In this document: positions 14,345-27,751 of the stretch, piece by piece
How the letters are laid out: the number at the start of each line of letters is the position of its first letter
How positions within the stretch are numbered: the stretch's first letter is position 1
Source: Eledone cirrhosa
Taxonomy: Eukaryota
DNA: 64,000 bases
Direction of reading: 5' to 3'
Assembly (NCBI GenBank): GCA_964016885.1
Contig: OZ024749.1
Span: forward strand, 47,864,001-47,928,000
Made by a program: the position numbers and the translations under genes
Notes under the pieces: model-generated
The model's database searches: none
What the model was told of the DNA's origin: nothing
Seen by the model: only the letters and a program-made list of their open reading frames with translations

Positions 14345-15040
14345 ACGTAAAATAAGAAAATTATAAGTAAGCTAATTACTATAATTATCTTATTTTACGT
14401 GTTTCATATAATTGTTCTGCATCTCCTTGCATTGAACAACAAAGTTACTAACACATAACCTATATATTTGCTTGCATAGGTATACATCTGTATATATATG
14501 TTGGTAGATATACTAATTCTTTATAATTATCTCCAAATTATTTTGTTGAGCAAAAATTTGCCAAAATTACTACTATAGTTCATAGTAACAGCTTGGTTAC
14601 TATCTTTTTAACACCCAACTCCTCACTGATTAACCTCGAGGTCACGTGATTGATTCTTTTGAATTTGCCACCGAACAAGAAGGCAGTGATTGTTTTCAGT
14701 GTCTTGGAATTTAGTCCCCGCTTGCTCTTTTCCATCCACTGAATAGTTTTGTATAAGTTCCCTGTGTCCACGCCTCGCCAGGTATCGTAGCTGAGAATGA
14801 CTCCCTGATGACGAAAATGTTTCTCCATGATCTCCATGTATATTACCTTTCAGAAACTAATTAGTTGGAGTGAAATTTAAGTAAGTAATCTAATTACTAT
14901 AATTTTCTTATTTTACGTTCTACATATAATTGTTCTACATCCCCTTGCATTGAACCACACAGTTACTAAGACAAAACGTATATATTTGCTTGTATAGGTA
15001 TACATCTGTATATATATGTTGGTAGATATAGTAATTATTT
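14345..15040 (+). mobile_element. Retrozyme-like HHR element, family B, ~1.3 tandem units of a 518-nt monomer
   Basis: Direct repeats 14365-14520 and 14879-15040 (period 518); one HHR; homologous along its length to the reverse complement of 25041-25746; flanked by (TA)n. Confidence 0.8.
14800..14871 (+). ncRNA. Type I hammerhead ribozyme
   Basis: ACTCC-CTGATGA-CGAAA...TTTCA-GAAA-CTAATTAG-TT-GGAGT. Perfect 5-bp stem I, intact core, palindromic stem III (AACTAATTAGTT), predicted GUU cleavage after 14866. Confidence 0.8.
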
Positions 15041-16072
15041 ATATATATATATATATATATATATATATATATATATATATATATATATATATCTTGCCTT
15101 CGGATTTTCATGTTGATACTTATACTCAGTGTTACACCATTTAGCTGTTCCCTCGAATGGAATTGTAGATATACAAAAGCGTGGAGAACTTAATATTGCT
15201 AACATAAAGTCATTGGACCATTTTCACAACCAATATTGCACCTTACTATATATATATATATATATATATATATATATATATATATATATATATATATATA
15301 TATATATATATATATTATGGTTATTCGTTTCAACTCATAATTGTTGCTACATTCGGCTTACAACTATGCATGTGGAGGTAAGATTGTGTATTAAATCATT
15401 GACGTGTCTACTCTTTTTTCGATCATCTCTGAATTGGCTACCGGCGGTGGCAAGATTTATTGATTGAAAACAGAATCCACAATATTTTAGATGTTAGTGC
15501 TCTGTTACTCTTTGAATATATATATATATATATGTTCACTCACATTTACTTGTTTCGAATTGAAACTTGCTTTCATGGTCGCTTATTATACCAAAATAAA
15601 GCTATTGAAATATATATTCCGTATGTTGTATAGGTAGTGATGCGCATTCGAAATAGAATATCATATGTGATGAATTTGTTTACACAACATTCTTATATTG
15701 TCTACGAAACGTACAGAAGAGGATGTGTTCCTGAACGGCATTGTTTGCATAGCTAAAGTGAAATAACTTATCTCGAAGTCGACAAGGCGCCTAACTGAAT
15801 ATATTTGAGAAATTCGTAAACATATACGTTGCCAGTAAAGAAAAGGTATACATACACTCTTTAAATATTTTATAGAAAATAGTTTCATATATTTGGGTTA
15901 TGAATGCAAATATATGGAAAATTATTTTTTGCTTTTCTTATTTACAGATCGATAAAGCAAATAGTTATGGGAATTATGTCAAAGATAATTCGTTTAAAAA
16001 AATTGTCTTATTTTTATGAAAGAAATATTCGATCAATACTTCTTCCTCTTTTTATCCTCATCTGCCACTATA

Positions 16073-16180
16073 TCTTCTTCTTCTTCTTCTTCTTCTTCTT
16101 CTTCTTCTTCTTCTTCTTCTTCTTCTTCTTCTTCTTCTTCTTCTTCTTCTTCTTCTTCTTCTTCTTCTTCTTCTTCTTCT
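16073..16180. repeat. (TTC)n microsatellite
   Basis: Seen directly. Confidence 0.95.
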
Positions 16181-17076
16181 CTATATGCAACAGCAAACAG
16201 CCCTTTTTTAGTTAAATACTTATGTATATAAATACACACACTTACACACACACACACACAAACACACACACACATACACACACAAACACACACAAACACA
16301 CACACACACACACACACATATATATATATATATATATATATATATATATATATATATATATATATATATATATATATATATATATATATATATATATATA
16401 TGGGTGGTGTGTATATTAGGTGCGTAGCAACAGTTACAGTCTGGGTGCTGTTCAAATCAGTCAATCTTCTTACGAGGTCAGTTTCGTTTGTGTTGTATTC
16501 CTGTATTACGACTGCATTGTCTAAAGTGTAAATATATTTACAATAGTGGAAATCAGGGTTGCAGCACATGTACAAAATGTATTTACTAATTCCGATTGTT
16601 CCGATATTGATCATCTAGTGATAAAATAATGGTGACGGGTCGCATATCAGAGCAGATATACGACCTTATATGTGCAAATTCATTTCCCAATTATTTCTAG
16701 CCTACAAAATATTTCCAAGTGTATGTTTCCTTCGTTCTAACTAGTACCTTATAAAAAACCATGCGTCGTCTACATGACTGGAAATATATATTATACTTAA
16801 TTGATAATGAAATATTCACGGCATTTGCCACTGCACATGTTTATATTAATGCAAAATAATTCTTGACACCATGCATGTTAATTATTTCCACTAGCTAAAA
16901 AATATCCATATTATTTCGGCATCAATTCTTCCATTGTAAATCCGATGATATCTATTTGTGCAGAAACGCTTGTAAGCAGTTTTCATTTGTCTTAAGAATA
17001 TAGGGTACTTTTCTCATAGCATGATAATTATTTGTGTGAACATAATTAATTGCATGGCATTATCTTGGCTTTTTAA

Positions 17077-17262
17077 GGGCGGTGGATTGGCAGTATCGGT
17101 AGAGGGTCGGACGCCATGCTTTCTAGCATAGTTACGTCCGTTTACAGTCTGAGTTCAAATCCCCCCGCGGTTAACTTTGCCTTTCATCCTTACGGGGTCG
17201 ATAAAATAAAGTACCAGTAATGTACTGGTTAATTGCTGGCCTTGTACCTAAAGTAGAAACAA
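17077..17262 (+). mobile_element. Full-length tRNA-derived SINE with 10-bp target-site duplication
   Basis: GGGCGGTGGATTGGCAGTATCGGTAG...GAGTTCAAATCCC...GCCTTTCATCCTTACGGGGTCGATAAAATAAAGTACCAG...AGAAAC; TCTTGGCTTT at 17063-17072 and 17266-17275. Confidence 0.88.
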
Positions 17263-25093: not shown

Positions 25094-25171
25094 ACCCAAC
25101 TAATTAGTTTCTGAAAGGGAATAAATATACTTTCCGAAGAATATATAAAGAAGCCTTTCGTCGTCAGGGAA
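25094..25171 (-). ncRNA. Type I hammerhead ribozyme (downstream copy)
   Basis: Minus strand: TTCC-CTGACGA-C-GAAAGG...CCTTTC-A-GAAA-CTAATTAG-TT-GGGT; predicted cleavage between 25098 and 25097. Confidence 0.78.
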
Positions 25172-25618
25172 GTCTATTCTCAGCTAAGTTTCTAGGCAAA
25201 GCGTGGACTCTGGGAACTTATACAAAAATAATTCAGTGGATAGAAAATAGCAAAGCGTGGACTGAGTTCCTAGCCACTGAGAAAATCACTGCCTACTGCG
25301 TCGATGGCAAATTAAAAAAGAATCAATCACGTGACATCGAGGTCAATCAGTGGAAAGTGGTTTGTTAAGAAGACAGCAGCCTGCCTGCTACCATAGCAGC
25401 AGTCTTGGCCAATATTGCTCGACAATTAATTTGGAGATAATTATAAAGAATTAATATATCTAGTAACATATATATACACACAGATGCATACCAATGCTAG
25501 CAAATACATAGGTTTTGTCTTAGTAACTTTGTGGTTCAATGCATGGGGTTGCAGAACAATAATATGAGAGACGTAACATAAGAAAATTATAAGATTAACT
25601 TACTTACTAAAATTTCAC

Positions 25619-25696
25619 TCCCAACTAATTAGTTTCTGAAAGGAAATAAATATACTTTCAGAAGAAAATATGGAGAAGCCTTTCGTCGTCAGGGAA
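25619..25696 (-). ncRNA. Type I hammerhead ribozyme (upstream copy)
   Basis: Minus strand: TTCC-CTGACGA-C-GAAAGG...CCTTTC-A-GAAA-CTAATTAG-TT-GGGA; predicted cleavage between 25623 and 25622. Confidence 0.82.
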
Positions 25697-27751
25697 TTCT
25701 ATTCTCAGCTAAGTTTCCAGGCAAAGCGTGGACTCTGGGAACTTATATATATATATATATATATATATGATATATATATGATATGTGTGTGCGTGTGTAT
25801 TTACGTATACCAAACACTCAGACATATATATATACATGTGTCTATGTGTGTGCTTGCCTCAGTGTATGCACATGCATATATCTTTATGTTTCATATATAT
25901 ATGTATATACCAATTCGGTGAAATGTGGCTCAGACTTACTGGAATGAAGGAATAATGAACAATTTTAACACATAGAATGTCACAAAATTATTTTGTTATC
26001 TGTAGAAATAAACGCGTATATTTTTAACTCTTATAGTTAAAGTGCCAATACATTCGTGGTAACAGTGGCAAGCAACAGAGAAATATAGAAACGTACGAAC
26101 ACGCAAATATTAAGAGGAATATTTTACTTGAAGTTAAAGACGTACACGCTTGAACACTGAGGGGTTTACTCATACATTCAGGTGCATTCAAATACGTAAA
26201 TGTTTGCATACACATTTACGTACGAGCACGCGCCATAGAAAAACCGTGCGAACACCTGTCTAATTAATGTGGTGTCATTTATGTGAATGTGTCATTGGAA
26301 TGTTTTATTTTATACAAGAACATACACGTTTCAATATTTTTGCATCCCTCTCATGTATGCCTCACATGAAAACCCGATTACTTCCCCTCCTCTTTGTGTA
26401 GAAAATACTTCACTGGAACATCTAAAAGTGGCAAAACAATTATATTACATTCAACAATTAGGTTTTTGTACAAAACTTCCATTATTTCCGAATATATTCC
26501 TGAAAGAAATTCACACATTATTCGACTTTCATTGATATTTCAGGTAAAAGAGGGTATAAGATGTTGACATGTAAATACAAATGCATTTCAAATTATGCTT
26601 CCATGTTGCCTAAAAATCATACGTGAGGCGATGTAGATATTTCCTGGACTAGTTTCCTTGTTTAACAATCTACTATAACATTGCTTTCAACTTCCTATTA
26701 ATCTATTATGTGGCTCTTCTCTGTAACCTCTATATGTCACGGGATACTAATCTGAATTTGCTAACTACTGCCGCCTTCAAACTGATCGTATGAGTTTGTT
26801 CTTTTTCCTACTTAAATTTGTGTAGCCGAGTAAGAGAGAGACGTATAAAATAAGTGGGGCATAAACAAATCAAAAATTCATATGAGAACACTTTTTTTAA
26901 AAGTTCGTTATTGTGATGTCATAAATAGAACAAAGCTTTCTGAAGATTCCGTTCATAAATATATATATATATATATATATATATATAGATATATATGTCA
27001 CAGAACAAGTGTTGTTTGTGTTCAATATATATATATGTTTATATATATTGAACACAAGCAACACACTGGCTCACTGACACGACTTTATTACAAAACAGAA
27101 TTAAATATTTACGATTACACAAAAAAACGGAACGGTGCAAATATTTGAGAGATGTCCCTGGCATGATTTATGAGAGAAATGGAAAGCTATGAGAGAAATT
27201 TAGCTGAATTCAGGAGTTCATCTATATACATTTTCTCGTTTCAAAATAGTAATACACATACACTCACATAGCCGCATACATATACACATGCATATATATA
27301 TGCATATGCATATATATGCACATGCATATGTATATATATATATTATATATATATATATATATATATATATATATATATATATATATATATATATATATAT
27401 ATAGAGAGAGAGAGAGAGAGAGAGAGAGAGAGAGAGAGAGAGAGAGAGAGAGAGAGAGAGATCAATTATCGTTGTTATTAACAATGGATATGTTTACATA
27501 AAAAAAGTATACAAAATTTAAAACTGGATTCAGCTGACGTTTTACATCTTAACTTTAGATCTCACTCATAAATCATGTCGAAAAGTTGGCTAAATATTTT
27601 CACAGTTACATTTATTTTCGTTTAGTAAAATTGCAATAGAATTGTATTGTATAATAAATATAATAGAAAAGATTTGCTTGAAGCAAATATAAAATAAAGT
27701 ATCTCCCTCTCCCCCTCTCTCTCTCTCTATATATATATATATATATATATA

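What the first reader, a model, noticed from the sequence alone, without database searches (positions are those of the whole stretch)
14345..25746. Two copies of the same ~520-nt unit are circularly permuted
Seen: 14345-15040 (plus, period 518) and 25041-25746 (minus, period 525) cover the same monomer but duplicate different segments. The first duplicates ~160 nt just 3' of the HHR; the second duplicates the HHR with ~50 nt each side. Inference: greater-than-unit-length copies with unrelated start phases are what rolling-circle reverse transcription of a circular RNA would leave, unlike a fixed LTR.
Basis: partly seen in the sequence, partly recalled or inferred. Interest (0 to 1): 0.82.

Follow-up and report, generated by a model that had tools for sequence, protein, structure and literature searches.

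The report
Ribozyme-bearing Penelope-type repeat in microsatellites
Two copies of an abundant non-coding 520-base repeat with a predicted self-cutting hammerhead RNA sit in AT microsatellites, each about 1.3 units long and in a different phase; they are likely reverse-transcribed by a Penelope-like retrotransposon, possibly from an RNA circle, starting at a few preferred sites rather than anywhere.

Summary
Observation confirmed. Copy A (14365-15043, +, period 518) and copy B (25040-25747, -, period 525) are 1.3-unit copies of one non-coding unit, about 80% alike. Each lies in (AT)n and carries a type I hammerhead with a palindromic helix III; Rfam misses it. The duplicated halves look copied from one template unit: halves group by copy, and B's halves share an allele at 10 of 10 family-polymorphic sites shown. 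That fits reading more than once round a monomer. But phases are not unrelated. The 3' ends of B, of an inverted 30-nt piece at A's 5' end, and of 10 contigs in a public run fall at +58 to +61 after the cleavage site; A's end and another contig's fall at +181. Microsatellite targets, a 5' inversion, partial tandems and internal priming are Penelope-like element (PLE) hallmarks, and PLE remnants lie in the window. Verdict: a new member of the animal non-LTR retrozymes (non-autonomous PLE derivatives). The circle model is published, not new; here circle (about 0.5) versus uncleaved linear multimer (about 0.35) stays open. No genome or RNA data were available, and only 24 of 357 loose ends were shown.

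The parts
14365..15043 (+). Copy A, direct part: unit positions +18 through one full turn to about +181 (1.3 units, period 518)
14335..14364 (-). Inverted ~30-nt piece at A's 5' end, matching unit positions about +32 to +61; its own 3' end joins the left (AT)n at the same site where copy B ends
   Evidence: (14335-14410 self-inverted, 83% over 77 nt)
14800..14871 (+). Predicted type I hammerhead of A: 5-bp stem I, core at 14805, 4-bp stem II, palindromic helix III, predicted cut after 14866
25040..25747 (-). Copy B: unit positions -124 through one full turn to +58 (1.35 units, period 525), two hammerheads one unit apart
25617..25698 (-). First hammerhead of B, predicted cut after 25623; 6-bp stem II; stem I 5 of 6 pairs
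25092..25173 (-). Second hammerhead of B, predicted cut after 25098; 6-bp stem II; stem I 5 of 6 pairs, broken at a different pair from the first
14251..14338 (.). (TA)n target, left flank of A
15036..15092 (.). (TA)n target, right flank of A
24932..25034 (.). (AT)n target at the 3' end of B
25744..25784 (.). (TA)n target at the 5' end of B
20045..21345 (-). Context, not part of the element: broken, 5'-truncated ORF with PLE-type RT and GIY-YIG motifs (read by eye), between ~980-nt inverted repeats 19042-20019 / 21347-22323; shows that PLE-type elements exist in this genome

Best explanation
These are two dispersed, 1.3-unit copies of a non-coding hammerhead-bearing repeat in (AT)n microsatellites, likely a non-autonomous Penelope-like element derivative (animal non-LTR retrozyme) whose RNA was likely reverse-transcribed by a PLE protein from preferred internal sites and read for more than one unit, possibly round a circle. 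Steps: (1) shown: unit, ribozyme motif, phases, targets, 5' inversion, many family copies in public runs. (2) Inferred: a copy with two hammerheads, like B, is transcribed; the two ribozymes pair through the palindromic helix III and cut out a monomer, which is ligated. (3) Inferred: a PLE GIY-YIG endonuclease nicks (TA)n and its RT primes inside the RNA at TA-rich sites 3' of the ribozyme, mainly +61 and +181. (4) Inferred: RT runs past the junction and stops after about 700 nt; the 5' end joins at TA microhomology (B) or to a short second cDNA primed from the other target strand at +61 (A's inversion). PLE-driven retroposition with preferred internal priming: about 0.8. The template being a ligated circle rather than an uncleaved multimer: about 0.5 overall.
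For: Ribozyme kept under variation: the shown family variants fall on the permissive core position 7 (25163, 58% alternative) and on a stem I G-U to A-U change (25620, 52%), and A and B differ by a matched one-base indel on both strands of stem I. Helix III self-duplex -9.0 kcal/mol, no stable hairpin alone, the dimer-dependent architecture described in PMC4209133 (passages). One template per copy: 7 vs 2 vs 0 informative columns; three-way counts 27/10/5 for A and 39/6/4 for B; 10 of 10 polymorphic sites shared, 5 of 5 testable differences near-private. No extra or missing bases at the three cleavage junctions beyond a family-wide one-base variant. Recurrent 3' ends: B +58, A inversion about +61, 10 contigs of X1 at +61 with (AT)n beyond; A +181 and one X5 contig at +181 with (TA)n beyond. 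All four outer ends lie on or beside TATA/ATAT motifs, which cover 9-11% of the unit. PLE hallmarks in PMC8557442 (passages): partial tandems, inverted 5'-truncated copy, (TA)n bias. PMC11167929 (main text): RT starts at two internal sites 85-92 nt 3' of the hammerhead cut and both target strands are nicked and extended. Non-coding: longest stop-free frame 89 aa; GC 34-36%. 1912 contigs of X1 lie on the monomer.
Against: No RNA data: cleavage, expression and circles are untested. No similarity between the unit and the PLE remnants in the window, so the helper is unidentified. The base of stem II is C opposite A in all 3 ribozymes, the triplet is GUU, and Rfam gives no hammerhead match even at E up to 10, so activity may be weak. 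A's direct part starts at +18 and its inverted piece at about +32, both close to the cut site, as a linear RNA with a ribozyme-cut 5' end would give; a circle gives no reason to stop there. Summed contig depth is uneven round the unit (about 566,000 at +33..+50 against about 25,000 at +231..+248), unlike random-phase copies, though the tool warns that this depth is no copy number. In PMC11167929 unprocessed RNA was the dominant substrate, and the RT start site was not homologous to the target, unlike the TA microhomology seen here. End evidence is thin: 24 of 357 loose-end rows shown, chosen by support; the X1 contigs may include copy B's own locus. A homogeneous tandem master would also give halves of one haplotype.
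Confidence: 0.75

Rival explanations
1. Same PLE machinery, but the template is a linear, largely uncleaved transcript of a tandem or 1.6-unit master locus; phases come from internal priming (3' end) and truncation (5' end), with no circle.
For: The two copies together span only about 1.6 units and the core is duplicated in neither. 3' ends recur. A begins 18 nt after a cut site. PAc inserts uncleaved RNA in vitro, and dimeric minimal hammerheads cleave poorly (PMC11167929, PMC4209133). Li et al. 2026 report multimer arrays of such units in other animals.
Against: Needs masters whose units stay homogeneous: B's halves share one haplotype and A's and B's repeats arose separately. Linear copying can only shorten a lineage unless arrays are rebuilt. 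Conservation of the ribozyme suggests cleavage matters.
Confidence: 0.35
2. One reading: rolling-circle RT of a circular RNA with random start points, so breakpoints scatter evenly round the circle.
For: Different phases, halves from one template, clean junctions. 5' ends do differ: +401, +18, +32, possibly +246 and +287 in single X5 contigs.
Against: 3' ends recur at two sites. Five ends in at most two clusters has chance 7e-5 if uniform and 0.014 if limited to 10 TA-motif clusters; these figures overstate the case, because shown ends are selected by support and a possible +166 end was left out.
Confidence: 0.1
3. DNA-level origin: fragments of a 520-bp satellite or of extrachromosomal DNA circles captured at broken (AT)n tracts by microhomology-mediated repair.
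For: TA microhomology at both ends of both copies; a short fold-back at one end can arise in repair; halves of one haplotype fit a homogenised array.
Against: Polarity (recurrent 3' ends just downstream of the ribozyme, variable 5' ends), a conserved ribozyme, and PLE-type elements with the same target and inverted ends in the window.
Confidence: 0.08
4. The unit is an orphan pseudo-LTR or internally deleted derivative of an autonomous PLE, and the copies are truncated by-products of that parent rather than a self-propagating unit.
For: Li et al. 2026 found 24 of 57 Xenopus retrozyme families homologous to Repbase elements, 21 of 22 of them PLEs, at their termini; PMC4209133 finds most minimal hammerheads dispersed.
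Against: Head-to-tail continuity across the ribozyme is seen in all 4 runs laid, contig pieces tile the whole unit, and no shown loose end was recognised as coding sequence. Partly compatible with the best explanation as an origin.
Confidence: 0.12

Closest known systems
Animal non-LTR retrozymes (Cervera & de la Pena 2020, PMC7229834; review PMC7761336; Li, Clavereau & Pollet 2026, 10.64898/2026.07.22.740005)
   Same: Non-coding, low-GC head-to-tail unit with a type I hammerhead; proposed monomer cleavage, circularisation and more-than-unit cDNA made by a PLE RT; unit length within the 51-972 bp reported by Li et al.
   Different: Seen here as dispersed 1.3-unit copies in (AT)n with a 5' inversion, not dimers or arrays; longer than the ~220-400-nt coral, mussel and axolotl units; C opposite A at the base of stem II; no RNA evidence. 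'Truncat', 'microsatellite', 'octopus' and 'cephalopod' do not occur in the main text of PMC7229834.
Penelope-like elements and their pseudo-LTRs (PMC8557442, PMC4209133, PMC11167929)
   Same: Partial tandems, inverted 5' piece, microsatellite targets, dimer-type hammerhead with palindromic helix III, RT start sites a fixed distance 3' of the ribozyme.
   Different: No ORF; two preferred 3' ends about 120 nt apart rather than a 30-40-nt tail; ends sit on TA microhomology, whereas PAc primes at a non-homologous site in vitro; no parent PLE identified.
Non-autonomous Chlamys PLEs such as MRC1 (PMC8557442, passage)
   Same: Non-autonomous, pseudo-LTR-forming, head-to-tail insertions once mistaken for LTR elements.
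   Different: Green-algal; most Chlamys lack hammerheads.
Plant LTR retrozymes (PMC4918200, listing and abstract start; described in PMC7229834)
   Same: Ribozyme in a terminal repeat, circular RNA intermediate.
   Different: Type III ribozyme, fixed LTRs, PBS/PPT and 4-bp TSD; here type I and variable repeats.

Membership tests
Animal non-LTR retrozyme | Type I hammerhead in the unit | tested here: met
   Core, stems I-III and NUH triplet in 3 of 3 copies; caveats: C opposite A at the base of stem II, no Rfam match
Animal non-LTR retrozyme | Head-to-tail repeats with ribozymes one unit apart | tested here: met
   B has two, 525 nt apart; A has one, with a partial repeat
Animal non-LTR retrozyme | Two or more full units (dimers to multimers) somewhere in the genome | not testable with these tools
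   No genome held; no laid contig spans the monomer
Animal non-LTR retrozyme | Non-coding and low GC | tested here: met
   Longest stop-free frame 89 aa; GC 0.34 and 0.36
Animal non-LTR retrozyme | Self-cleavage and accumulation of monomer circles | not testable with these tools
   Needs RNA; circular fold z -3.8 (A) and -1.6 (B) is not diagnostic
Animal non-LTR retrozyme | No PBS or PPT | not tested
   No tRNA-primer search was run
Non-autonomous PLE derivative | Partial tandem, 5' inversion, microsatellite target | tested here: met
   Partial tandem and (AT)n in 2 of 2 copies, inversion in 1 of 2
Non-autonomous PLE derivative | Preferred internal RT start sites 3' of the ribozyme | tested here: inconclusive
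   Ends recur at +58/61 and +181, but from 24 of 357 loose-end rows
Non-autonomous PLE derivative | Sequence shared with the pseudo-LTR of an autonomous PLE | tested here: inconclusive
   No match to PLE remnants within this window; rest of genome unavailable
LTR retrozyme / fixed-LTR element | Same terminal repeat in every copy, type III ribozyme | tested here: not met
   A and B repeat different segments; ribozyme is type I

The most novel reading that the evidence does not exclude
This family is a genomic record of a Penelope-type RT running round a ligated RNA circle: priming at a few TA-rich sites that pair with the nicked (TA)n target, passing the ribozyme junction, and rebuilding a two-ribozyme master from one monomer. 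With its many copies, end-mapping and half-versus-half comparison would give direct genomic evidence for the circle step of the retrozyme model, which the papers read here state only as a hypothesis.
Probability: 0.4. Interest if true: 0.65.

Novelty: new member of a known kind. Interest (0 to 1): 0.42.

Why it matters
The step from retrozyme RNA circle back to genomic DNA is proposed in PMC4209133, PMC7229834 and PMC7761336 but is not shown in the passages I read, and Li et al. 2026 say the mobilisation mechanism remains to be characterised. Dispersed 1.3-unit copies keep both insertion ends, unlike long arrays, so this abundant family makes the question testable from one assembly. It also links retrozyme-like units to PLE insertion signatures. 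The element class and the hypothesis are not new.

Tried and rejected
Rfam: 0 matches at gathering score; 12 and 15 weak matches at E up to 10, none a hammerhead family. Pattern scans: 0 in metagenome, viral and prokaryote-genome contigs; a looser pattern gave 2 metagenome loci, both 50-53% GC with no similarity beyond the pattern, rejected as chance. No RNA holder listed. Raw RAD reads (X7): their end piles looked like fixed termini, but 6 of 8 positions tested lie within 1 nt of an AATT edge (10% expected), a seventh 3 nt away, and the eighth where copy A has AATT; all X7 ends were dropped as likely restriction ends. The go-back joint across the laid monomer is predicted by both circle and linear models and was not used to choose between them. 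X4 and X5 bear other organism labels but small shares, so I make no cross-species claim. Pfam found nothing significant for the PLE remnants; one unnamed homologue, P0001, E 6.7e-43; none among longer proteins. Local folds place predicted hairpins just 5' of both preferred ends, but z is only -0.3 to -2.3; not used. The equal total lengths of A (705 with inversion) and B (708) are unexplained. PMC5785218 is not held. No look-alike stretch among earlier findings.
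Full report
Setting. The window is AT-rich (19-40% GC per 2 kb) and full of microsatellites (144 rows), with remnants of endonuclease-bearing Penelope-like elements; I infer an animal genome. No whole genome is held. Unit coordinates below count from the first base after the predicted ribozyme cut (+1), on copy B's 525-nt unit.

Observation. Confirmed as written. A's repeat aligns at 154/172 and B's at 178/191; A and B are about 80% alike. A's direct part runs from +18 through one turn to about +181; B runs from -124 through one turn to +58. The core, about +181 to +400, is duplicated in neither. All four outer ends abut (AT)n, so target-site duplications cannot be read. 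A's first 30 nt are an inverted copy of about +32..+61.

Ribozyme. Three motifs have a CUGAYGA core, stem II, GAAA, a palindromic helix III, a GUU triplet and stem I; my first scan found 2 of the 3, and the third has a stem I mismatch. Stem I is 5 of 5 pairs in A and 5 of 6 in each B copy, broken at different pairs, so their template likely had all six. A and B differ by one base on each strand of stem I. Helix III has no stable hairpin alone but a -9.0 kcal/mol self-duplex, the dimer-dependent type described in PMC4209133. Among the 40 of 216 variant rows shown for the laid monomer, the one in the core is at permissive position 7 and one turns a stem I G-U into A-U. Against activity: C opposite A at the base of stem II in all three, a GUU triplet, and no Rfam hammerhead match. 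Cleavage is predicted, not shown.

Were the halves copied from one unit? Across the four homologous segments, 7 columns group A5 with A3 and B5 with B3, 2 group 5' with 5' copies, and 0 the third way; three-way counts are 27/10/5 in A's repeat and 39/6/4 in B's. So each repeat arose after A and B diverged, which excludes independent truncation of one fixed parent. B's halves differ at 10 of 182 sites. Five of these have a shown row, and in 5 of 5 the family carries the other half's base at 98-100% of depth; five have no shown row. At the 10 shown sites where the family is polymorphic (23-75% alternative) the halves agree 10 of 10; chance is 6e-4 if sites were independent and 0.25 if fully linked. 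This fits halves identical at insertion, each since drifting about 3% (B) or 5% (A). A circle predicts this; so does a homogeneous tandem master.

Are the phases unrelated? I laid one monomer (25141-25665) on four runs: 1912, 63 and 29 contigs and 7767 raw reads were laid. Of 357 loose-end rows 24 were shown. The 6 raw-read rows were dropped because their piles match AATT sites. Of the 18 contig rows, 14 read by eye as diverged family sequence or are unassigned on that count except two 5'-side rows with unrelated flanks; precisely: 13 family-like, 2 unrelated 5' flanks (+246, +287, single X5 contigs), 2 with pure (AT)n beyond a 3' end, and 1 with a TG/TA-rich flank beyond a 3' end at +166. The two (AT)n rows are 10 contigs of X1 at +61 and 1 contig of X5 at +181. 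These are the ends of B (+58), of A's inverted piece (about +61) and of A (+181). The unit has a TATAATT motif at +32, +59 and about +176 in A, and each is a junction in these copies. So 3' ends recur within +58..+181 while 5' ends vary. The chance figures (7e-5 uniform, 0.014 among 10 TA clusters) leave out the +166 end and ignore that shown rows are selected by support; X1 may include B's own locus. Summed depth peaks at +33..+50 and is about 20 times lower near +240, which suggests many short copies just 3' of the cut site, but the tool warns that it is no copy number.

Mechanism. PLE insertions are partial tandems, often with an inverted 5'-truncated copy and a (TA)n bias (PMC8557442). Purified PAc nicks both strands of AT-rich DNA and starts RT at internal sites 111-118 nt into its ORF, with the hammerhead cut at 26, and does not need cleavage (PMC11167929). 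The window holds a broken ORF at 20045-21345 that matches unnamed protein P0001 over two frames (tblastn E 2e-49), with RT and GIY-YIG motifs that I read by eye from recalled PLE motifs, between 90%-identical inverted repeats; it shares no sequence with the unit. I conclude that a PLE protein likely primed this RNA at preferred sites and copied more than one unit (0.75-0.8). For the template I favour a circle (about 0.5): halves of one haplotype, clean junctions, B crossing two cut sites, and a two-ribozyme copy able to regenerate any phase. An uncleaved multimer stays at about 0.35: A starts 18 nt after a cut site, the two copies nest in 1.6 units, and PAc prefers unprocessed RNA. DNA-level capture is about 0.1.

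Comparison and novelty. It works like, and by the features testable here belongs with, the animal non-LTR retrozymes, which Li et al. 2026 derive from PLE pseudo-LTRs. [quoted passage not shown] In searches I saw no paper mapping the ends of genomic retrozyme copies, but most hits were seen only as listings and subscription journals are not covered. What I read: 10.64898/2026.07.22.740005 parts 1-3 of 5; PMC11167929 parts 1-2 of 4; PMC7229834 passages and Discussion; PMC8557442, PMC7761336 and PMC4209133 passages. No supplements were seen; those of Li et al. and PMC7229834 may hold related families or end data. Earlier scan notes describe similar microsatellite-targeting units in other genomes; they are unchecked and were not used as support.

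Verdict. Real feature, new member of a known kind, interest 0.42. Its value is as a test case for whether the retrozyme RNA is copied as a circle.

Noticed in passing
window 19042-22323: PLE-type remnant: 5'-truncated, frameshifted RT plus GIY-YIG ORF (20045-21345, minus) between ~980-nt inverted repeats 90% alike, with a 140-nt internal tandem, next to (AT)n; looks like a PLE insertion with an inverted 5' copy. One unnamed homologue found.
   Followed up: partly
window 51313-52056: Second broken RT-like ORF with PLE-type motifs by eye, starting beside a (TA)n tract; no Pfam match.
   Followed up: no
window 5200-5500 and 5770-6124: A different repeat family with minimal type I hammerhead-like motifs (cores at 5310 and 5873, minus; palindromic TATATA helix III) inside fold-back insertions next to (AT)n; related pieces at 18758-18944, 22897-23244 and 59584-59724.
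   Followed up: partly
window 45845-46132, 46361-46744, 56862-57064, 27832-27946: Further fold-back (self-inverted, 76-93% alike) insertions, several abutting (AT)n; no hammerhead found by my scans. Possibly both-strand priming products of other PLE-mobilised families.
   Followed up: no
window 14126-14253: Short element just upstream of copy A with short terminal inverted repeats, related to 27728-27965.
   Followed up: no
window 14339-15043 and 25040-25747: The two insertions have nearly equal total length (705 and 708 nt) in spite of different phases; chance or a limit on RT run length.
   Followed up: no
window 25566-25623 (minus): The first ~57 nt after the cut site can fold into a hairpin that would tie up the 3' strand of stem I and ends just before the +58/61 end; weak (z -1.35).
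   Followed up: partly
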